64,000 nucleotides of DNA, from contig CAZLFZ010000001.1 of the NCBI GenBank assembly GCA_964559215.1, forward strand, positions 3,985 through 67,984. Direction: 5' to 3'. Of this stretch, positions 1 through 8,177 are shown piece by piece. The first letter of the stretch is position 1. Every line of letters begins with the position of its first letter. Below the pieces are notes generated by a model. The model was not told the origin of the DNA, searched no databases, and saw only the letters and a program-made list of their open reading frames with translations. This DNA is from an uncultured archaeon. GTDB taxonomy: Archaea > Aenigmatarchaeota > Aenigmatarchaeia > QMZP01 > JAFGSV01. A program made the translations under genes and the position numbers.

Positions 1-53
1 GTGCCTTAGTTATAGAATTCAAGCACAGAAGCAAACTTGGAACTACGAGGCAA

Positions 54-3032
54 ATGGAAAATGCATCACATCAACTGAAAGATTATCTGGTTTCTCTCTC
101 ATCAAAAGATGAAGCATACTTTTTAGGTGCTGTAACAGACGGTATCAAAATAAGATTTTTCACTTGCCAAAACAGCCAGGTGTTTGAAGAGCAACCTCAT
201 GAATTGAGGGGAGAAGATATAATCAGGCTGATGAGGAGTGCCATAGCATTGAATACAAAGACCCTGAGTGCCAAGAATTTGGTCTCGGAGTTCTGCGAAC
301 CGAAAACGGATAACTTGGCTAAAAATCTTATCAAAATTCTTTATAGAACCATAAAGAAATCTCCGACCCAAAAAACATACATGCTGAATGAGGAGTGGGA
401 GAGATTATTCAAATTGGGTCACGAAGACAAATCTCATCAGAAGAAGATAGAGGAGAGGGGGGTTGCATTGAGTAGGATTGTCGGTGAGAAAACCATGCCA
501 ATGTCGGAACAATACAAAGTCCTTTTCTGTGCTCAGACCGCATATGCCACAATAGTCAAGTTAATTGCATACAGGGTTATCTCGGACATTGTGTTCCATA
601 GTCCACTACAGAGTTTCAAATCCTTGTCGACAGCCGAAAGCAACAGCCTAAGAATATTTTTTTCCGAATTTGAAGAGGGTTCCACTTTCAGGGAGATAGG
701 AATAGACAACCTGCTGGAAGGAGACTTCTTTTCGTGGTATTGCACAAAAGAACAGTGGAATGAGGAAATTTACATGGTTTTGAAAGAAGTCATATCCCGA
801 CTCTCAGATTATGAAGACAAGCAAGACATATTCCACAAATCAACGGTAAACGACCTTTTCAGGGAACTTTATCAGCACATCATGCCTTCCGTAGTCCGCT
901 ACAGTCTGGGAGAATACTATACTCCGAAATGGCTCGCACAACATCTACTCGAAAACGCATCGAAAAACAAGGTCGGATGGAGAGGGTTAGACCCCTGTGC
1001 GGGCTCTGGAACCTTTCTGATAGCAATGATAGAGAAGGTGATTAATGAGAACAAGAACGCCCCAAGAGATAAGATTTTCAACGAAGTAATCCACAGAGTC
1101 AAGGGCATAGACTTGAATCCATTGGCTGTTTTGACATCCAGAGTTAACTATTTCATAGCAATCTCACCATATCTCCCGAAAGACATAAAATATATCGAAA
1201 TACCCGTGCATCTTGGTGATTCTGCGAACATACCAAGATTGGTAAATATCGCAGGTGTCGAGTGCATACAATACAAGATTGACACAAAAATAGACTCAAT
1301 GGAAATCACACTACCCCGAAGTTCTCTATCAGACCCGAAGAAATTTTCCGAAACAATGTTCAGGCTGGAGGCTTGTGTCTCACAGAAAAACAAAGACAAA
1401 GCCAAGGAACTAATCTGCGATTTGATAGCCAGTGAAGAAAGATCAACTGAAATAATACGGAGAATTGATATTTGGCTGGACTCTTTAATCAAGCTGGAGA
1501 TAAACAAATGGAACAGAATCTGGACGAGGATAGTAAAGAACTTCTTGACTACAGCAAATCTGGGTAAATTCGATGTCATAATTGGCAACCCACCGTGGAT
1601 AGATTGGAAAAACCTTCCAACGGGATACAGGGAGAAGATAAAATCTCTGTGCATAAAGAAAGAAATGTTTTCTGGAGACCACCTCACGGGTGGCATAAAC
1701 CTCAACATATGTGCCTTAATCACGAATGTCGTTGCAGAAAATTACTTGGATGATGACGGCACATTCGCATTCCTCATGCCAAAATCCATAATTTTCCAGC
1801 AGACTTATGAAGGCTTCAGGAACTTGAAAATTGAATATAGAGGTAACATGTATTTTCAGGAGTTCCACGATTGGACAAAATCTGGTCATCCATTTCACCC
1901 AGTTCAGCAACAATTTCTGACTTATTATATGTCGTTCAAGAAACCGAGAAGGGATTATGTTCCCGTCAGACGATACAGCAAGAACAGAGGGGAATCAATC
2001 AGAGGAAAGGAGAATAATGACTTGGAATCTGTAATCGGATTGTTTGACATCGAAGATTTTGTGTGCGGTCAGGTATCAGCATCAAACACGGCGTTCACCT
2101 ATGCCAAAACAAGGGAAGAACTTACAAAGTTCAGGGAAATATCAGGCATATGCACATACATCGGAAGGGAGGGTATTGAGTTTTACCCGCAAGAAATTAT
2201 GATATTATCACCTGATGCCGAGAAGGTAAGGTCTGGAGAAGGAATAATCTGGGTGAAGAATTTCCAGAATGAAAAATCCAAGTATAGAGTTCCCCAAAAA
2301 AGCGTGAGGATGGAGAAAAAGTATCTATACCCCCTTCTGAAAGGTGTTGATATAAAACGCTTCAGAATCGTTGACACAAACTATCTCGTCCCCTTTCCAT
2401 ATGAATCCAAGAACCCAAGAAAAGCATTGACTATCGAGGAGCTTGTAAGTAAATCCCCACTTTTATTGAAATATCTTGAATCATTCAAAGAGATTATTGA
2501 GAAACAGACCGAATATAATGAAAAGATAAAGGGGAAATATGGTGGCATCTACTATAGTCTCGCAAGGGTCGGAAAATACACCTTCGCTCCACACCATGTT
2601 GTTTTTAGGGACAACACGAAATGGTGTGCGGCTGTAGTGTCTTCAACCAATAACAAATGGGTAGGAAAAAAGCTATATCTGACACAGAATCACGCCGTTT
2701 CAATGTGTGAAGATGAAAAAGGAAATTTCATTGCGGAAGATGAGGCTCATTTCATATGTGCAATATTGAACTGTCCTATAGTAGAAAGATTTATACTTCA
2801 ATCATCCGACAGCAGGACTTTCAAGATACAACCGCCGATTTTTATCCCGAAATACAACATAAAAAATGTAAACCATGTTAAACTAAGGGACATTTCAATC
2901 AAGGCACACGAGAATCCAGATAATGTAGAAGAACTCAGAGAGGAAGCAGAAAAGATATACATGTCAATTTGTTCTTCGGGGAACCCAAACATAGAGGATA
3001 GCAACAAACAGGCAAATTTAAAACACTTCTGA
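54..3032 (+). CDS. Large N6-adenine DNA methyltransferase fusion protein; Type IIG/IIL (MmeI/Eco57I-like) restriction-modification candidate
   Basis: 992-aa ORF with gamma-class amino-MTase motif order: motif X 'GEYYTPKW', motif I 'LDPCAGSGTFL' (nt 990-1016) and motif IV 'IIGNPPWIDW' (NPPW at nt 1587-1598, in frame). A roughly 290-aa N-terminal domain and a roughly 470-aa C-terminal region consistent with a target-recognition domain, as in single-chain RM enzymes. The gene sits in a segment that is AT-rich relative to the rest of the window. Confidence 0.6.
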   Translation: MENASHQLKDYLVSLSSKDEAYFLGAVTDGIKIRFFTCQNSQVFEEQPHELRGEDIIRLMRSAIALNTKTLSAKNLVSEFCEPKTDNLAKNLIKILYRTIKKSPTQKTYMLNEEWERLFKLGHEDKSHQKKIEERGVALSRIVGEKTMPMSEQYKVLFCAQTAYATIVKLIAYRVISDIVFHSPLQSFKSLSTAESNSLRIFFSEFEEGSTFREIGIDNLLEGDFFSWYCTKEQWNEEIYMVLKEVISRLSDYEDKQDIFHKSTVNDLFRELYQHIMPSVVRYSLGEYYTPKWLAQHLLENASKNKVGWRGLDPCAGSGTFLIAMIEKVINENKNAPRDKIFNEVIHRVKGIDLNPLAVLTSRVNYFIAISPYLPKDIKYIEIPVHLGDSANIPRLVNIAGVECIQYKIDTKIDSMEITLPRSSLSDPKKFSETMFRLEACVSQKNKDKAKELICDLIASEERSTEIIRRIDIWLDSLIKLEINKWNRIWTRIVKNFLTTANLGKFDVIIGNPPWIDWKNLPTGYREKIKSLCIKKEMFSGDHLTGGINLNICALITNVVAENYLDDDGTFAFLMPKSIIFQQTYEGFRNLKIEYRGNMYFQEFHDWTKSGHPFHPVQQQFLTYYMSFKKPRRDYVPVRRYSKNRGESIRGKENNDLESVIGLFDIEDFVCGQVSASNTAFTYAKTREELTKFREISGICTYIGREGIEFYPQEIMILSPDAEKVRSGEGIIWVKNFQNEKSKYRVPQKSVRMEKKYLYPLLKGVDIKRFRIVDTNYLVPFPYESKNPRKALTIEELVSKSPLLLKYLESFKEIIEKQTEYNEKIKGKYGGIYYSLARVGKYTFAPHHVVFRDNTKWCAAVVSSTNNKWVGKKLYLTQNHAVSMCEDEKGNFIAEDEAHFICAILNCPIVERFILQSSDSRTFKIQPPIFIPKYNIKNVNHVKLRDISIKAHENPDNVEELREEAEKIYMSICSSGNPNIEDSNKQANLKHF

Positions 3033-3045
3033 CAGATTACTATCT

Positions 3046-3360
3046 ATGGTCGGGGATGGTCATGTCAGCGAAGTTGAAATAAACTGTCCTTTTTGCGGAA
3101 AGGCGAAAATAAACATCATACGCAAAGAGAGTATGAACCAGCCAAAAGTATCAAGAATTTCATCTGGCAAATCTTCAACTACATACAGGAGAACTGGAGT
3201 AATGTGCATCGTTGCCACAGACTGTCCCATTTGCGGAAGGAAGAAGAACGACATAAGGAGAGCACTTGATGGAGAGATAGGCACGAAAACACACGAGGAA
3301 CGCCTAAAACGCCTGCAAGCATCAGGATTACCCACGAAGATTGTGAATAAGAGGGGATGA
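3046..3360 (+). CDS. Zinc-ribbon protein (two CPxCG pairs), function unknown; co-oriented with upstream MTase
   Basis: 104-aa ORF with 'CPFCG' and 'CPICG' spaced about 45 aa apart, which gives a 4-Cys zinc ribbon. Its start lies 14 nt after the MTase stop and its stop 2 nt before the next ORF, so the layout is operon-like. Confidence 0.4.
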   Translation: MVGDGHVSEVEINCPFCGKAKINIIRKESMNQPKVSRISSGKSSTTYRRTGVMCIVATDCPICGRKKNDIRRALDGEIGTKTHEERLKRLQASGLPTKIVNKRG

Positions 3361-3361
3361 A

Positions 3362-3979
3362 ATGGTAAAGGAGTTCGGGGATCAGTTTGAGGAATTCGTG
3401 ATGTCATACTTCAAGAGAGTGAAAAAATGTAAAGTCGCTGTTAGGGATTATTCTTTTCATAAATCTCATAAAACAAAAGGGGGTGGAACAAGAAACAGTC
3501 CAACAGATTTGGATGTCGTGGCATTCGGAAAGAGCAAAATTTATGCAATTTCATGCCAAGAATTTATTCCATTCACGCCAAAAAAAGCACCTGAAAATTG
3601 TAAGAACATTGTTGATAATCTTAAGCAAGGAATTGAAAACCTTAAACAAAATCTTGGAAAGGGAAAAATTGAACCCGTTATAGCCTGTATTTCTATAAGC
3701 AAATATGGCTACCAAGAACTAATGAAACATACAAGAAGAATGTTTGGAAAAGAACTTGAAATCAAATTTCTTTTTGATATGGTTTCTGAATATGTCAATT
3801 TTTTAACTCATAAGGACTTCAAAAAGATGTCTGCTATCAGTTTTGGAACGCTCGATTGGTTTCTATGTAGAATTGTTGGGTGGTATGGTTTAAACTTCAC
3901 AAAAGAACTGGAAGATTTGAAACCAGAGGAAAGAAAAAGGGTATATACTATATTCAGGGAAAGACAACTCAAGGAATGA
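3362..3979 (+). CDS. Restriction-endonuclease-fold protein with Hjc (archaeal Holliday-junction resolvase)-like N-terminal domain and unknown C-terminal domain
   Basis: The N-terminal ~75 aa ('QFEEFV...KVAVRD...GGGTRNSPTDLDVVAFGKSKIYAISCQEF') align by eye to Hjc 'AERELI...GFAVVRSAGS..VDLVAGNGKKYLCIEVK'. The first catalytic Glu and Asp are conserved, but the terminal E-x-K reads S-C-Q. An extra domain of about 130 aa follows. Confidence 0.35.
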   Translation: MVKEFGDQFEEFVMSYFKRVKKCKVAVRDYSFHKSHKTKGGGTRNSPTDLDVVAFGKSKIYAISCQEFIPFTPKKAPENCKNIVDNLKQGIENLKQNLGKGKIEPVIACISISKYGYQELMKHTRRMFGKELEIKFLFDMVSEYVNFLTHKDFKKMSAISFGTLDWFLCRIVGWYGLNFTKELEDLKPEERKRVYTIFRERQLKE

Positions 3980-4022
3980 TTTGTAAACATCGGTTTTATT
4001 AGTCAGTGTTGAAACTATAACT

Positions 4023-4334
4023 ATGAAGCTCCAAAAATTGACGTATCTGTTATTCATAGTAAATTCAGCTTTAGATAGCGGAAAAGATATAGACATAAAA
4101 TTTGAAGAAGTTAGGAATCATGCCGAAAAGCAAAATTTCGTGGGTTATCTAAAAGTAAAGCTGGATAGAGACCTCAATCTCACAGCAGAAGAAACAGCAG
4201 AATTGAATGAAAAAATTGAGAGATTGTCTAATGCTGTCTATGATAGGGAGAGAAGAAAGTTTGGAGTAGAAAATAATGGCTTATGCTTGATTATTGCTTA
4301 CCTAACTGAGATAATACAGAATTATTTGGATTGA
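4023..4334 (+). CDS. Hypothetical small protein (103 aa) in AT-rich islet
   Basis: ORF only; no motif recognised. AT-rich codon usage matches the neighbouring islet genes. Confidence 0.2.
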   Translation: MKLQKLTYLLFIVNSALDSGKDIDIKFEEVRNHAEKQNFVGYLKVKLDRDLNLTAEETAELNEKIERLSNAVYDRERRKFGVENNGLCLIIAYLTEIIQNYLD

Positions 4335-4400
4335 CTTTAAGAGCAAAAATCATACTTTAGGAGCAGAATTCACTTTAAGAGCAAAGCCGTCCTGAGGTTA
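4330..4400. repeat. Three imperfect ~19-bp direct repeats (core 'ACTTTAAGAGCAAA') at the boundary of the AT-rich islet
   Basis: 'actttaagagcaaaaatcat' / 'actttaggagcagaattc' / 'actttaagagcaaagcc' read directly at nt 4334-4386. They lie just before composition switches to the higher-GC core genes. Confidence 0.5.
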
Positions 4401-5894: not shown

Positions 5895-7049
5895 ATGATA
5901 AGGGTTTTGGTCCTGGGGTCAAAGGAGTATCCCTTCGGCACTAACATGGGTGATGACCCCATACCGAGCGGGGGGATGGAAACTTATCTGAATGACTTAG
6001 CACCCGAATTGTCGAAATTGTGCAAGTTGCTGATAATCACGAGACGTTTCACTGGAACGGAAAAATGTCAAAAAATCGGCAAGAATATCTCCGTAAGAAG
6101 GGTCCCGTGGGTAAGGGGAAAGTGGCTCAGGAACCCGAGCTTTAACTTCTTTTCATGCTTATCTTCCATGAAAGTCATGAAAAATATTGACGTTATCTAT
6201 TCAAACGGCATCATATCTGGCCTTTTTGCTCTTTTGTTGGGCAGGATGTTCCGAAAGAATGTTGTCTACAGGCCTGCAGGCATAGGGTTCGTCCAGTACG
6301 GGTTCCCTCTTAAACAGTTACTCTTTGCCCTTGAAAGGCTGGTGTTCGCCAAATCCGATGCGGTCATTTTCCATTCACATGGCGAGAAAAGAAACGCGGA
6401 ATCGGTGTTCAAAATAAGATTCAGGGACGCAAGCGTGATCTTGACAGGGTTCCCGGTCGGGAAATTCAAGACGGGAAATAAAGGGCTCGGAAAAGAGTTC
6501 GGAATCGGAAACGAAACCGTGATAAGTGCCGTGTCGAGGTTCGTCCCTGTAAAAGGTCTCGAATATCTGCTTGAGGCGTGTTCGCAACTGGATTCCGATT
6601 TCAGGCTGCTGCTGGTTGGCTCAGGTCTTGAGGAAGGGAGGCTGAAAAAGCTGAGCAGCGATCTGGGCATCGCCAACAAGGTCATTTTTGCCGGTTTCAG
6701 GCATGATGTGCCTGACATTCTGGCCATAACCGACATTTTCGTTGTCACTTCTTTGTTCGAGGGCCTGCCGACATCCCTGCTGGAGGCTATGGCCGCTGGC
6801 TTGGCCTGCGTTGTCACCGATATAGGGCTGCCTGTCCAGCATATGAAAACGGGGCTCGTTATCAGGCCGAAAGACCCGTCCGCGTTGAAAAATGCGATGG
6901 AATCGCTGATAAAGGACAAGGGTATGAGAGAAAAACTGGGAGAGAATGCCAGGGAATTTGTGACCGAGAACTGCACCCAGAAAAAGGCCGCGCTCGGGCA
7001 TGTAAAGCTGTTCAGGAAAATTTTAAAGTGTGATTTGAAGGAGGATTGA
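5895..7049 (+). CDS. Glycosyltransferase family 4 (GT-B, retaining)
   Basis: 384 aa. C-terminal GT4 signature region 'FVVTSLFEGLPTSLLEAMAAGLACVVTDIG' (EX7E-like). Confidence 0.7.
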   Translation: MIRVLVLGSKEYPFGTNMGDDPIPSGGMETYLNDLAPELSKLCKLLIITRRFTGTEKCQKIGKNISVRRVPWVRGKWLRNPSFNFFSCLSSMKVMKNIDVIYSNGIISGLFALLLGRMFRKNVVYRPAGIGFVQYGFPLKQLLFALERLVFAKSDAVIFHSHGEKRNAESVFKIRFRDASVILTGFPVGKFKTGNKGLGKEFGIGNETVISAVSRFVPVKGLEYLLEACSQLDSDFRLLLVGSGLEEGRLKKLSSDLGIANKVIFAGFRHDVPDILAITDIFVVTSLFEGLPTSLLEAMAAGLACVVTDIGLPVQHMKTGLVIRPKDPSALKNAMESLIKDKGMREKLGENAREFVTENCTQKKAALGHVKLFRKILKCDLKED

Positions 7050-7061
7050 AATCGGATTATT

Positions 7062-8177
7062 ATGAACGCCGGGATCGTTTTCGCATTCCACAGCTCCATC
7101 GAAGGCACGCTCGGGAGGGCGGGGGGCAATGCGAAGCCTGTATCGGAATTTTTGCTGTTCAAGCGTTATTCGGAGACGTTCGATCAGGTTTTCATTTTCA
7201 GCGCCGACTCCAAGTCTTACGATAAGATGTTGCCGGAAAACTGCCGCCACATAAAGCTGGTCAACAGGCCCCTTTTCATTCTGTTCGGGTGGCTTGTCCT
7301 GTTGCTTTACGCCTGGAGATACAAGTTCAATGTCATCAGGCTCATAAGTTCTCCCGCGATGCCCACGGTTTTTTTGACAGGGAAGCTCGCTCGAGCGAAG
7401 GTCATCCTAAAATACTACTATCTTTGGTACAATACCACCATAGACCCTGTGAAGAGGGATCTGACGCTGAAGGCGTTTTTGATTAAAAAAATTGAGAAAT
7501 TCCTGTTGTATTTCGTCGACTATGTGATAGCGGGCAACAAGGAGGTGGAAGAATTCGTTGGGGATGAAAGGAAAATACTTGACATAAACGAGGGCATAAT
7601 AACGGATGAATTTGACCCGGCAAAGGTCAAGGAAGACGGGCTGATGAAAAGGCTCAAAGGTGTCAAGCTCATTTTCGTCGGCAGGCTGAATAACTTCAAA
7701 GACCCTCTGACCATGCTGAGAGGCTACGGTATAGCGAAAAAGCGAATCCCGGACCTGAAATTGGTCATCTGCGGCGACGGTGATATGAGACCGGATTGTG
7801 AAAAACTGGCCGACAAGGATGTCCATTTTCTGGGATTTGTGGGCAACGTGCCTCCCCTTTTGAGGGGGGCCGATATCTACGTCATCACCTCCGTTTATGA
7901 CGCTTCCCCGAGAAGCCTCATGGAGGCCATGTGCATGGGTCTGCCGTGCATCGCAACAAGGGTTGGGGGGATTCCGGAATATCTTCCCGAAGACTGCGGT
8001 GTTCTGATCGAGCCGGGAAACCCCGGGCTGCTCGCAGAAAAGATAGTGCAGCTAGCCAAAAACCGGGAGATGAGAGAAGGCGCAGGGAAGAAATCCAGGG
8101 AAAGGATTTTAAAATATCATGACCTGGAGAAAAACCTGGACAAGGAAATAAAATTCCTGACCAAGGGCCGTTGCTAA
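7062..8177 (+). CDS. Glycosyltransferase family 4
   Basis: 371 aa. 'YVITSVYDASPRSLMEAMCMGLPCIATRVGGIPE' matches the GT4 C-terminal domain. A GGAGG-like purine tract lies upstream of the ATG. Confidence 0.65.
   Translation: MNAGIVFAFHSSIEGTLGRAGGNAKPVSEFLLFKRYSETFDQVFIFSADSKSYDKMLPENCRHIKLVNRPLFILFGWLVLLLYAWRYKFNVIRLISSPAMPTVFLTGKLARAKVILKYYYLWYNTTIDPVKRDLTLKAFLIKKIEKFLLYFVDYVIAGNKEVEEFVGDERKILDINEGIITDEFDPAKVKEDGLMKRLKGVKLIFVGRLNNFKDPLTMLRGYGIAKKRIPDLKLVICGDGDMRPDCEKLADKDVHFLGFVGNVPPLLRGADIYVITSVYDASPRSLMEAMCMGLPCIATRVGGIPEYLPEDCGVLIEPGNPGLLAEKIVQLAKNREMREGAGKKSRERILKYHDLEKNLDKEIKFLTKGRC

What the first reader, a model, noticed from the sequence alone, without database searches (positions are those of the whole stretch)
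54..3979. AT-rich islet with a three-gene module: MmeI-like giant N6A-methyltransferase, zinc-ribbon protein and Hjc-like nuclease-fold protein
The first ~4.4 kb is visibly more AT-rich than the rest of the window, roughly high-30s % G+C by eye against about 50%. It carries three co-oriented genes with gaps of 14 nt and 2 nt. The first is a 992-aa protein with gamma-class amino-MTase motifs (X 'YYTPKW', I 'DPCAGSGTF', IV 'NPPW') flanked by a ~290-aa N-domain and a ~470-aa C-domain, which is the layout of Type IIG/IIL single-chain RM enzymes such as MmeI. It is followed by a 4-Cys zinc ribbon and a protein whose N-terminus resembles the archaeal Holliday-junction resolvase Hjc. That trio is not a textbook Type I, II or III arrangement. 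It could be a Type IIG enzyme with accessory proteins or a different MTase-anchored defense system (for example BREX- or DISARM-style logic in miniature).
Basis: partly seen in the sequence, partly recalled or inferred. Interest (0 to 1): 0.7.

Follow-up and report, generated by a model that had tools for sequence, protein, structure and literature searches.

The report
Transposon carrying a restriction-modification gene
The AT-rich stretch is the right-hand 4.4 kb of a 7.7-kb jumping-gene element in an archaeal chromosome; it carries an ordinary single-protein restriction-modification enzyme, and the small genes behind that enzyme are rare orphans, not conserved partners.

Summary
The ORFs, the methyltransferase motifs and the low G+C are real. 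G+C is 38.9% for window 1-4388 against 46.8% for the rest.

The "992-aa" protein is cut by the window edge. Identical metagenome contigs show a 1103-aa protein. It has an invariant N-terminal D-x8-E-x-K nuclease motif, a gamma-class N6-adenine methyltransferase and a C-terminal recognition domain. It matches a Type IIG profile end to end (E 5e-161) and belongs to a large family of more than 2000 proteins, mostly bacterial.

In 70 homolog loci with at least 700 nt of downstream sequence, none carries a relative of the 104-, 205- or 103-aa proteins.
- The 205-aa protein has a restriction-endonuclease-like (PD-(D/E)xK) fold. It is not an Hjc-family member, its motif is non-canonical (S-C-Q-E), and its family has only 15 members among 1.84 billion representatives.
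- The 104-aa protein is a 4-Cys zinc ribbon with one known homolog.

The islet has exact borders: perfect 17-bp terminal inverted repeats, each abutted by a perfect 9-bp direct repeat. Inside are an IS5-family (IS903-like) transposase and two ribbon-helix-helix genes, the second overlapping the enzyme gene's start. It is a cargo-carrying transposon, a new member of a known kind.

The parts
1..3032 (+). 3' 3032 nt of a 3312-nt Type IIG restriction-modification gene (codons 94-1103 of 1103). The reading frame is open from base 3, and the true start codon lies 279 nt upstream of the window.
   Evidence: Frame open to the window edge. An 1103-aa gene is called on identical contigs L001, L002 and L003. 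PADLOC Type IIG profile E 5e-161 over profile positions 12-1055 of 1100. More than 2069 homologs.
15..23 (+). E-F-K codons, the ExK half of the N-terminal PD-(D/E)xK nuclease motif (E99, K101 of the full protein). The partner D90 is encoded just upstream of the window.
   Evidence: D90, E99 and K101 are invariant in a 38-sequence family alignment. Translation.
915..1598 (+). Gamma-class N6-adenine methyltransferase motifs: X (YYTPKW, 915-932), I (DPCAGSGTF, 990-1016) and IV (NPPW, 1587-1598).
   Evidence: Motif positions. These residues are invariant in the family. Pfam Eco57I and N6_Mtase score above cut-off. The model of a 60%-identical homolog matches CamA, PglX, DrdV and MmeI.
3046..3360 (+). 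104-aa four-cysteine zinc-ribbon protein (CPFC...CPIC) with a conserved C-terminal tail, HEERLKRLQASGLPTKIVNKR. Function unknown.
   Evidence: ORF. No family match above cut-off; the Lar-like hits are zinc-knuckle matches below cut-off. One distant homolog, P0006, sits beside an integrase and ParE in another element. The tail shows 11 synonymous and 0 non-synonymous codon differences.
3362..3979 (+). 205-aa protein with a restriction-endonuclease-like (PD-(D/E)xK) core in residues 1-150. The motif is non-canonical: E10, P47-x-D49-x-D51, S64-C65-Q66-E67.
4023..4334 (+). 103-aa orphan ORF, the last ORF of the element. No homolog found.
   Evidence: ORF. No family hit. Its cluster has one member. 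No tblastn hit in any fetched locus other than the identical contigs.
4334..4367 (+). Two subterminal copies of the end motif ACTTTARGAGCARA (4334-4347 and 4354-4367). They are candidate transposase-binding sites.
   Evidence: Direct repeats D6 and D17 and inverted repeat I12. Sequence.
4372..4388 (-). Right terminal inverted repeat of the element: GGCTTTGCTCTTAAAGT, read on the minus strand. Its perfect partner lies 7,681 nt upstream, outside the window (L003 318-334).
   Evidence: 17/17 inverted repeat. Found in 2 of 500 composition-preserving shuffles. It shares its first 7 nt with the IS903B end GGCTTTGTTGAATAAATC.
4389..4397 (.). Right copy of the 9-bp target-site duplication GTCCTGAGG. 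The left copy (L003 309-317) directly abuts the left inverted repeat and overlaps the last base of the rpoL stop codon.
   Evidence: Both junctions are identical in three independent assemblies.

Best explanation
Window 1-4388 is the right-hand part of a 7,715-bp IS5-family (IS903-like) transposon. It inserted between rpoL and the endonuclease-dU gene of an archaeal chromosome and duplicated 9 bp of target (GTCCTGAGG).

Gene order in the element:
- left inverted repeat
- a 237-aa unknown protein and a 165-aa SocA/Panacea-domain protein (a possible toxin-antitoxin pair)
- a DDE transposase on the opposite strand
- two ribbon-helix-helix (RHH) genes separated by a repeat-rich spacer
- the Type IIG gene, whose start overlaps the second RHH gene by 4 nt
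- the 104-aa zinc ribbon, the 205-aa nuclease-fold protein and the 103-aa orphan
- right inverted repeat

The Type IIG enzyme is self-sufficient. This part is inferred from family knowledge:
- its C-terminal domain reads a short asymmetric DNA site;
- the gamma-class methyltransferase (NPPW) marks adenine in host sites;
- the N-terminal D-x8-ExK nuclease cuts unmarked incoming DNA at a distance;
- the upstream RHH protein probably acts like a controller protein and times expression after the element enters a new cell.

The three downstream genes are probably co-transcribed passengers. They are not conserved partners of the enzyme. The 205-aa protein is most likely a DNA-binding or DNA-cutting protein of the restriction-endonuclease fold with an altered active site. 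The zinc ribbon's role is unknown.

Shown here: gene identities, folds, borders and the lack of co-conservation. Inferred: enzymatic activities, regulation and co-transcription.
For: Gene 1:
- It is cut by the window edge and is 1103 aa on contigs identical to the window.
- Full-length match to the PADLOC Type IIG profile.
- D90, E99, K101, DPxxGSGTF and NPPW are invariant in 38 homologs.
- Homologs are stand-alone genes, for example on a Vibrio owensii plasmid.

No co-conservation:
- No relative of the 104-, 205- or 103-aa proteins in 80 genome loci or in the closest metagenome loci.
- Their few homologs sit in other contexts.

Transposon:
- Perfect 17-bp inverted repeats lie exactly at both G+C shifts, each abutted by the same 9 bp.
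- The junctions are identical in three assemblies.
- A 17-nt inverted repeat arises in 2 of 500 shuffles before the 9/9 direct repeat is also required.
- The internal DDE_Tnp_1 transposase (1.6e-27) has no inverted repeats of its own. Its annotated relatives are IS5/IS903B.
- An IS903B copy shows the end GGCTTTG... and a 9-bp duplication.
- The closest homolog of the enzyme (60% identity) is likewise preceded by a divergent transposase 48% identical to this one, plus a small ORF that I read by eye as RHH-like; no family matched it.

RHH genes upstream: and L017.
Against: - No empty site and no second copy of the element was found. Both metagenome scans returned nothing, but the second should have hit a known JGI contig and did not, so these negatives are uninformative.
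- The transposase gene has host-like GC3 (0.645) while the cargo has 0.31-0.46. The transposase could therefore be a later arrival, or the element is a mosaic.
- The nuclease domain of the enzyme is poorly modelled around the catalytic Asp (pLDDT below 50). Its assignment rests on motif invariance and the profile match, not on a fold match.
- The tight gene spacing (13 nt and 1 nt) leaves room for a lineage-specific functional link between the enzyme and the small genes.
- No activity was measured.
Confidence: 0.8

Rival explanations
1. The Type IIG enzyme, the zinc ribbon and the nuclease-fold protein form one multi-gene defence system. For example, the 205-aa protein could supply second-strand cleavage, as the small subunit of R.BspD6I does, or could act as an effector.
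For: - Same strand, with gaps of 13 nt and 1 nt.
- A 40%-identical homolog in a Bathyarchaeia genome lies about 4 kb downstream of a PglX-like methyltransferase plus BrxL, with a zinc-ribbon gene beside it.
- The closest homolog of the enzyme is also followed by small 4-Cys proteins, which are unrelated in sequence.
Against: - None of 70 loci of enzyme homologs carries relatives of the small genes.
- Homologs of the 104-aa and 205-aa proteins never occur together.
- GC3 of the 205-aa gene (0.31) differs from that of the enzyme gene (0.46).
- The canonical catalytic Glu and Lys of the 205-aa protein are replaced by Ser and Gln.
- No PADLOC model matches either small protein.
Confidence: 0.12
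2. The outer inverted repeats belong to a non-autonomous element moved in trans, and the internal transposase gene is a later, independent arrival rather than the element's own enzyme.
For: GC3 of the transposase (0.645) and of the first RHH gene (0.57) is host-like, unlike the rest of the cargo. The transposase ORF overlaps the end of the Panacea-domain gene by 6 nt, as an insertion might produce.
Against: - No inverted repeats flank the transposase gene.
- There is no other copy of it in the 64-kb window.
- The outer ends match the IS5/IS903 style to which this transposase is related: a GGCTTTG terminus and a 9-bp duplication.
- The transposase-small ORF-enzyme arrangement recurs in a diverged contig.
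Confidence: 0.15
3. The 205-aa nuclease-fold protein serves transposition, like TnsA of Tn7, which cuts the second strand at transposon ends, rather than defence.
For: It is a restriction-endonuclease-fold protein encoded next to a transposon end in an element with a DDE transposase.
Against: Its homologs occur in loci without any transposase. The related element on L110 has no homolog of it. IS5-family elements are not known to need such a partner (general knowledge, not tested here).
Confidence: 0.03

Closest known systems
Type IIG / IIL single-chain restriction-modification enzymes (Eco57I-type methyltransferase domain; solved examples DrdV, MmeI, BpuSI)
   Same: One polypeptide with an N-terminal PD-ExK nuclease motif, a helical connector, a gamma-class N6-adenine methyltransferase (NPPW) and a C-terminal recognition domain. 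It matches the PADLOC Type IIG profile over its full length. Fold matches to DrdV, MmeI and BpuSI.
   Different: There is no sequence-level membership in the MmeI family: no Pfam MmeI_* domain matched, and the PDB profile search gave only a weak motif-level hit to DrdV at E 2.6e-5. The best structural match of the methyltransferase plus recognition part is CamA/M.BseCI. In the closest relatives the gene is preceded by an RHH gene.
IS903 and the IS5 family of insertion sequences; IS with passenger genes ("transporter IS")
   Same: DDE_Tnp_1 transposase, terminal inverted repeats beginning GGCTTTG, and a 9-bp target duplication. These features were checked on an IS903B copy.
   Different: The element is 7.7 kb with nine passenger ORFs instead of about 1 kb. 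The transposase is only about 23% identical to IS903B and has a longer N-terminus with a Cys/His-rich stretch. The host is archaeal. The transposase sits internally rather than at an end.
Transposon-like units of restriction-modification genes flanked by inverted repeats and short target duplications (Furuta et al. 2010, PMC2853133)
   Same: RM genes, including a Type IIG homolog, bounded by inverted repeats with an 8-bp duplication were described there. Here the repeats are 17 bp and the duplication 9 bp.
   Different: This element carries an apparently intact transposase of a family that fits the ends, a putative RHH controller and extra orphan cargo. It sits in an archaeon.
PD-(D/E)xK (restriction-endonuclease-like) superfamily: AF1548, FokI cleavage domain, R.BspD6I small subunit, NucS, Hjc
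   Same: The 205-aa protein shares the alpha-beta-beta-beta-alpha-beta core, the helix-1 Glu and the P-x-D at the start of the second strand.

Membership tests
Type IIG restriction-modification enzyme | Nuclease and methyltransferase in one polypeptide | tested here: met
   D-x8-ExK (D90, E99, K101) and methyltransferase motifs X, I and IV lie in one 1103-aa ORF and are all invariant in 38 homologs. PADLOC REase_MTase_IIG E 5e-161 over profile positions 12-1055 of 1100.
Type IIG restriction-modification enzyme | Gamma-class N6-adenine methyltransferase fold with its own target-recognition domain | tested here: met
Type IIG restriction-modification enzyme | N-terminal domain has a PD-(D/E)xK fold | tested here: inconclusive
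   The motif is invariant.
Type IIG restriction-modification enzyme | Site-specific methylation and cleavage at a fixed distance from the site | not testable with these tools
   Needs biochemistry or methylome data.
MmeI family (Type IIL) | Match to the MmeI-specific domains (Pfam MmeI_N, MmeI_hel, MmeI_Mtase, MmeI_TRD, MmeI_C) | tested here: not met
BREX / DISARM / MADS methyltransferase-anchored systems | Presence of the other core genes (PglZ, BrxC, BrxL; DrmA/B/C; other mad genes) | tested here: not met
   The PglX and mad2 hits cover only the methyltransferase core and score far below the Type IIG profile. None of the other element genes matches a PADLOC model of these systems.
Hjc Holliday-junction resolvase family | Match to the Hjc family profile and closest fold similarity to Hjc | tested here: not met
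PD-(D/E)xK nuclease superfamily (205-aa protein) | Alpha-beta-beta-beta-alpha-beta core fold | tested here: met
PD-(D/E)xK nuclease superfamily (205-aa protein) | Canonical catalytic D ... (D/E)-x-K residues | tested here: not met
   The P-x-D is present (D49), but the (D/E)xK position reads S64-C65-Q66. Distant relatives have E-C-K. The invariants are D49, D51, C65 and E67. Activity is therefore uncertain.
IS5 family, IS903-like transposable element | DDE_Tnp_1 transposase related to IS5/IS903 | tested here: met
   Pfam DDE_Tnp_1 1.6e-27. tblastn hits are annotated IS5 family or IS903B, at about 23% identity over 82-96% of the length.
IS5 family, IS903-like transposable element | Terminal inverted repeats and a 9-bp target-site duplication | tested here: met
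   17/17 inverted repeats abutted by 9/9 GTCCTGAGG. An IS903B copy shows the end GGCTTTGTTGAATAAATC and a 9-bp duplication, and the first 7 nt of the two ends are identical.
IS5 family, IS903-like transposable element | Evidence of mobility: an empty site or copies at other sites | tested here: inconclusive
   Scans for an empty site and for the end sequence found nothing. The positive control (the known JGI contig L002) was also missed, so the negative carries no weight.
Lar restriction-alleviation family (104-aa protein) | Score above the family cut-off over the whole domain | tested here: not met
   TIGR03655 scores 28.3 bits against a cut-off of 39.6 and covers only 20 residues around the first CxxC. 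Pfam Lar_restr_allev E 0.018.

The most novel reading that the evidence does not exclude
The zinc-ribbon and nuclease-fold genes, and perhaps the 103-aa ORF, are a lineage-specific add-on that works with the Type IIG enzyme. The 205-aa protein could be a FokI- or R.BspD6I-small-subunit-like partner that completes double-strand cleavage, or a separate effector. Alternatively, they form a new small defence or anti-defence cassette that rides on archaeal transposons.
Probability: 0.1. Interest if true: 0.55.

Novelty: new member of a known kind. Interest (0 to 1): 0.3.

Why it matters
It gives a cleanly delimited example, with exact ends and a target duplication, of an archaeal IS5-family transposon that moves a complete Type IIG restriction-modification gene. 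The gene travels with a putative ribbon-helix-helix controller and a possible toxin-antitoxin pair. This adds to the evidence that restriction systems travel as transposon cargo, and it extends that evidence to archaea.

The finding does not point to a new defence mechanism.

Tried and rejected
- Exact look-up of the 992-aa reading found nothing because that reading is an edge artefact.
- A single-sequence scan of genome contigs found no relatives. The alignment-based scan did.
- A PDB sequence search with the single protein gave no hit.
- Lar-like restriction alleviation for the 104-aa protein was rejected. The hits are below cut-off and cover only a zinc knuckle, and neither its homolog nor the positional analogs strengthen them.
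- PHROGs and PADLOC found nothing for the small proteins.
- tblastn of the 104-aa protein against phages and of the 205-aa protein against plasmids gave no match.
- Viral contigs held no relatives of the 205-aa family or of the transposase. The nine single hits of the 17-mer are what chance would give.
- A search for the transposase's own inverted repeats, and for further copies of it in the window, found none.
- No tRNA gene lies at the borders, and no Rfam family is present in the window. A tRNA-targeted integrase island is therefore unlikely.
- I considered that the island had inserted into the loop of an ancestral hairpin. I rejected this because a 9-bp direct repeat lies outside the inverted repeats.
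- The bacterial-type promoter and terminator scan was not informative for an archaeon.
- The afdb50 fold library was unavailable.

Full report
**Observation.** A fourth co-oriented ORF lies at 4023..4334. The gaps are 13, 1 and 43 nt.
- The motifs YYTPKW, DPCAGSGTF and NPPW sit at residues 288, 313 and 512 of the 992-aa reading.
- Pfam Eco57I (7.5e-11) and N6_Mtase (6.9e-10) both pass their cut-offs.
- The region is AT-rich: 38.9% G+C for window 1-4388 against 46.8% for the rest.
- The flanking genes are archaeal housekeeping genes. They include endonuclease dU, a signal peptidase, transcription factor S, archaeal SecD and a thiolase that matches the NF053570 (AcCoTHIOL_METTL) acetyl-CoA acetyltransferase model just under its cut-off.

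**The first gene is cut by the window edge.** Its frame is open back to base 3 and reads ALVIEFKHRSKLGTTRQ before the listed ATG.
- Metagenome contigs from several samples match the window at 100% identity over the stretches they share. Three of them span the whole region.
- On these contigs the gene is 1103 aa and starts 279 nt upstream of the window.
- The extra N-terminus, together with window bases 15-23, holds GRMDSNIGALVIEFK, that is D90-x8-E99-x-K101.
- In an alignment with 37 homologs of 43-61% identity, D90, E99, K101, the DPxxGSGTF motif and NPPW are all invariant.
- The full protein matches the PADLOC Type IIG profile PDLC03630 at E 5e-161 over profile positions 12-1055 of 1100. The window-only reading began at profile position 87.
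- The family is large, with more than 2069 hits at E below 1e-10. It is mostly bacterial and of uniform length, about 1085-1100 aa. It is also found on plasmids, where the gene can stand alone, as in Vibrio owensii.

**Structure of the enzyme.** An AlphaFold model of the closest homolog P0007 (60% identity, pLDDT 81) was compared with the PDB.
- At sequence level only a weak motif-level hit to DrdV appears, and no Pfam MmeI domain matches.
- The protein is therefore a Type IIG enzyme with the MmeI/DrdV-type layout, but it is not an MmeI-family member.
- Caveat: the model is poor around the catalytic Asp. The nuclease assignment rests on motif invariance and the profile match.

**Are the small genes partners of the enzyme?**
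- I fetched 80 genome loci of homologs with 6-kb flanks and the contigs of the closest metagenome homologs.
- tblastn with the 104-, 205- and 103-aa proteins found nothing except the identical contigs and their own few homologs.
- Of 70 loci with at least 700 nt downstream, 55 have some co-oriented ORF nearby, but none resembles ours.
- The 205-aa protein has four relatives in the 5.8-billion-protein word-indexed search, counting the identical sequence itself. An exhaustive profile search of 1.84 billion representatives found 15.
- Its homologs sit in two other contexts. In a Bathyarchaeia genome one lies about 4 kb downstream of a PglX-like methyltransferase plus BrxL. Elsewhere they sit beside ORFs whose translations suggest a divergent nuclease-fold gene and a RadC-like gene; I did not scan those neighbours against any family library.
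- The 104-aa protein has one homolog, next to an integrase and a ParE-like gene.
- GC3 also separates the genes: enzyme 0.455, zinc ribbon 0.438, the 205-aa gene 0.306 and the 103-aa gene 0.317.

**What the small proteins are.**
- The 205-aa model (pLDDT 66.6 overall, about 80-89 for residues 1-150) has the alpha-beta-beta-beta-alpha-beta core of restriction-endonuclease-like nucleases.
- Across 17 family members the invariants are V2, G6, D49, D51, C65, E67 and W166.
- The canonical (D/E)xK position reads E-C-K in distant members but S-C-Q in this protein and its close kin. Whether it still cuts DNA is open.
- The 104-aa protein is a two-CxxC zinc ribbon. Its Lar-like hits are below cut-off and cover one zinc knuckle.
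- Its last 21 residues, HEERLKRLQASGLPTKIVNKR, are identical in its only homolog despite 11 synonymous codon changes. The gene is therefore real and its tail is under strong constraint, but the partner is unknown.
- The 103-aa ORF has no relatives.

**The islet is a transposon.**
- On the longer contigs the low-G+C region runs from just after rpoL to just before the endonuclease-dU gene.
- It is bounded by a perfect 17-bp inverted repeat: GGCTTTGCTCTTAAAGT at L003 318-334, and its complement at 8016-8032, which is window 4372-4388.
- Each repeat is directly abutted on the outside by GTCCTGAGG (L003 309-317 and 8033-8041, the latter being window 4389-4397).
- A perfect 17-nt inverted repeat arises in 2 of 500 composition-preserving shuffles. 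The added 9/9 direct repeat makes chance negligible.
- Both junctions are identical in three independent assemblies.
- Two more copies of the end motif lie just inside the right end, at window 4334-4367.
- Inside the 7,715-bp element is a 405-aa DDE_Tnp_1 transposase. It has no inverted repeats of its own and no other copy in the window.
- The transposase's annotated relatives are IS5 family and IS903B.
- An IS903B copy that I inspected ends in GGCTTTGTTGAATAAATC and is flanked by a 9-bp duplication. It shares the first seven bases and the duplication length with our element.
- The closest homolog of the enzyme (L110) is also preceded by a divergent transposase, 48% identical to ours, and a small upstream ORF.
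- The rest of the cargo consists of:
  - a 237-aa unknown protein plus a SocA/Panacea-domain protein, a possible toxin-antitoxin pair;
  - two small genes: the first matches only Pfam HicB, just below its cut-off, and reads as ribbon-helix-helix by eye; the second is a clear ribbon-helix-helix (RHH_3) match. They are separated by a spacer full of short repeats, and the second overlaps the enzyme's start codon by 4 nt.
- RHH genes also precede two close homologs: L016 by tblastn and L017 by a Pfam RHH_1 match. The 48-aa ORF upstream of the gene on L110 looks RHH-like by eye, but no family matched it.

**Mechanism.** Shown here: the gene identities, the folds, the borders and the absence of co-conservation. 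Inferred from established knowledge of Type IIG enzymes, C-protein-controlled restriction systems and IS5-family transposition:
- the element moves by its DDE transposase and duplicates 9 bp of target;
- the RHH protein delays or limits enzyme expression;
- the enzyme methylates adenine at its own sites and cleaves unmethylated DNA nearby;
- the three downstream ORFs are read through as passengers.

**Limits.**
- No empty site or second copy was found. The metagenome collection also failed to return a known positive contig, so those negatives do not count.
- The host-like GC3 of the transposase (0.645) leaves open that it joined the element late.

**Comparison and novelty.** Restriction-modification genes inside transposon-like units with inverted repeats and short target duplications have been described before, including a Type IIG homolog (Furuta et al. 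2010, PMC2853133). IS elements with passenger genes are a recognised class. This is therefore a new member of a known kind. It is notable for its clean ends, its archaeal host and its extra orphan cargo. The three-gene defence-module reading is not supported. It survives only as a low-probability lineage-specific possibility.

Noticed in passing
window 3295-3357 (last 21 codons of the 104-aa ORF); L010 2472-2534: The C-terminal tail HEERLKRLQASGLPTKIVNKR is identical in the only homolog, despite 11 synonymous codon differences. The rest of the two proteins is only weakly similar (40% identity over the whole alignment). This is a strongly constrained peptide with no known partner.
   Followed up: partly
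L003 2965-3368 (upstream of the window, same element): Two 52-aa genes lie here. The second matches Pfam RHH_3; the first matches only HicB, below its cut-off, and looks ribbon-helix-helix by eye. An 86-nt spacer packed with AATACTTATATTAC-type repeats separates them. The second gene overlaps the Type IIG start codon by 4 nt. RHH genes also precede two of the closest homologs (L016, L017), and L110 has a 48-aa upstream ORF that looks RHH-like by eye. This looks like a controller-protein arrangement built on RHH rather than helix-turn-helix.
   Followed up: partly
L003 418-1662 (upstream of the window, same element): A 237-aa protein with no homolog is followed by a 165-aa SocA/Panacea-domain protein (Pfam 5.1e-07). 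They may be a toxin-antitoxin pair that stabilises the transposon.
   Followed up: no
L054, L062, L064, L066, L088, L092 and L044, L065, L079, L090 (downstream of the Type IIG homolog in each): Distant homologs of the enzyme (25-28% identity) have their own tightly coupled downstream genes. One conserved partner is about 270 aa (six loci, overlaps of 16-19 nt) and another about 380 aa (four loci, 4-nt overlap). Neither is related to the small genes here.
   Followed up: no
L007 2197-11793 (Bathyarchaeia genome GCA_038874395.1): A 1219-aa PglX/MmeI-like methyltransferase is followed directly by a BrxL-like gene. Then come a double zinc-ribbon gene, the 217-aa homolog of the 205-aa protein and a weakly DUF6308-like gene. 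This is a small defence island without the other BREX genes.
   Followed up: no
Vibrio parahaemolyticus and V. owensii plasmids, e.g. NZ_CP150860.1 17894-19789: Many shrimp-associated Vibrio plasmids of 66-75 kb match only residues 429-1063 of this Type IIG family (47% identity) and annotate the region as hypothetical protein. These look like truncated copies.
   Followed up: no
Metagenome-contig collection: An end-sequence pattern that is present in the JGI contig Ga0315549_1005192 (L002) returned no match. That collection evidently does not hold every JGI contig reachable by the protein look-up, so negative scans there are weak evidence.
   Followed up: no
window 5895-8177 and onward: Directly right of the insertion site, after the endonuclease-dU, signal-peptidase and TFS genes, come two ORFs that look like glycosyltransferases and one that looks like a radical-SAM enzyme, all judged by eye. 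Further along, NCBIfam scans found a MurJ/MATE-like flippase, a nucleotide-sugar dehydrogenase and a sulfatase-like protein. This looks like a cell-surface glycan cluster.
   Followed up: no
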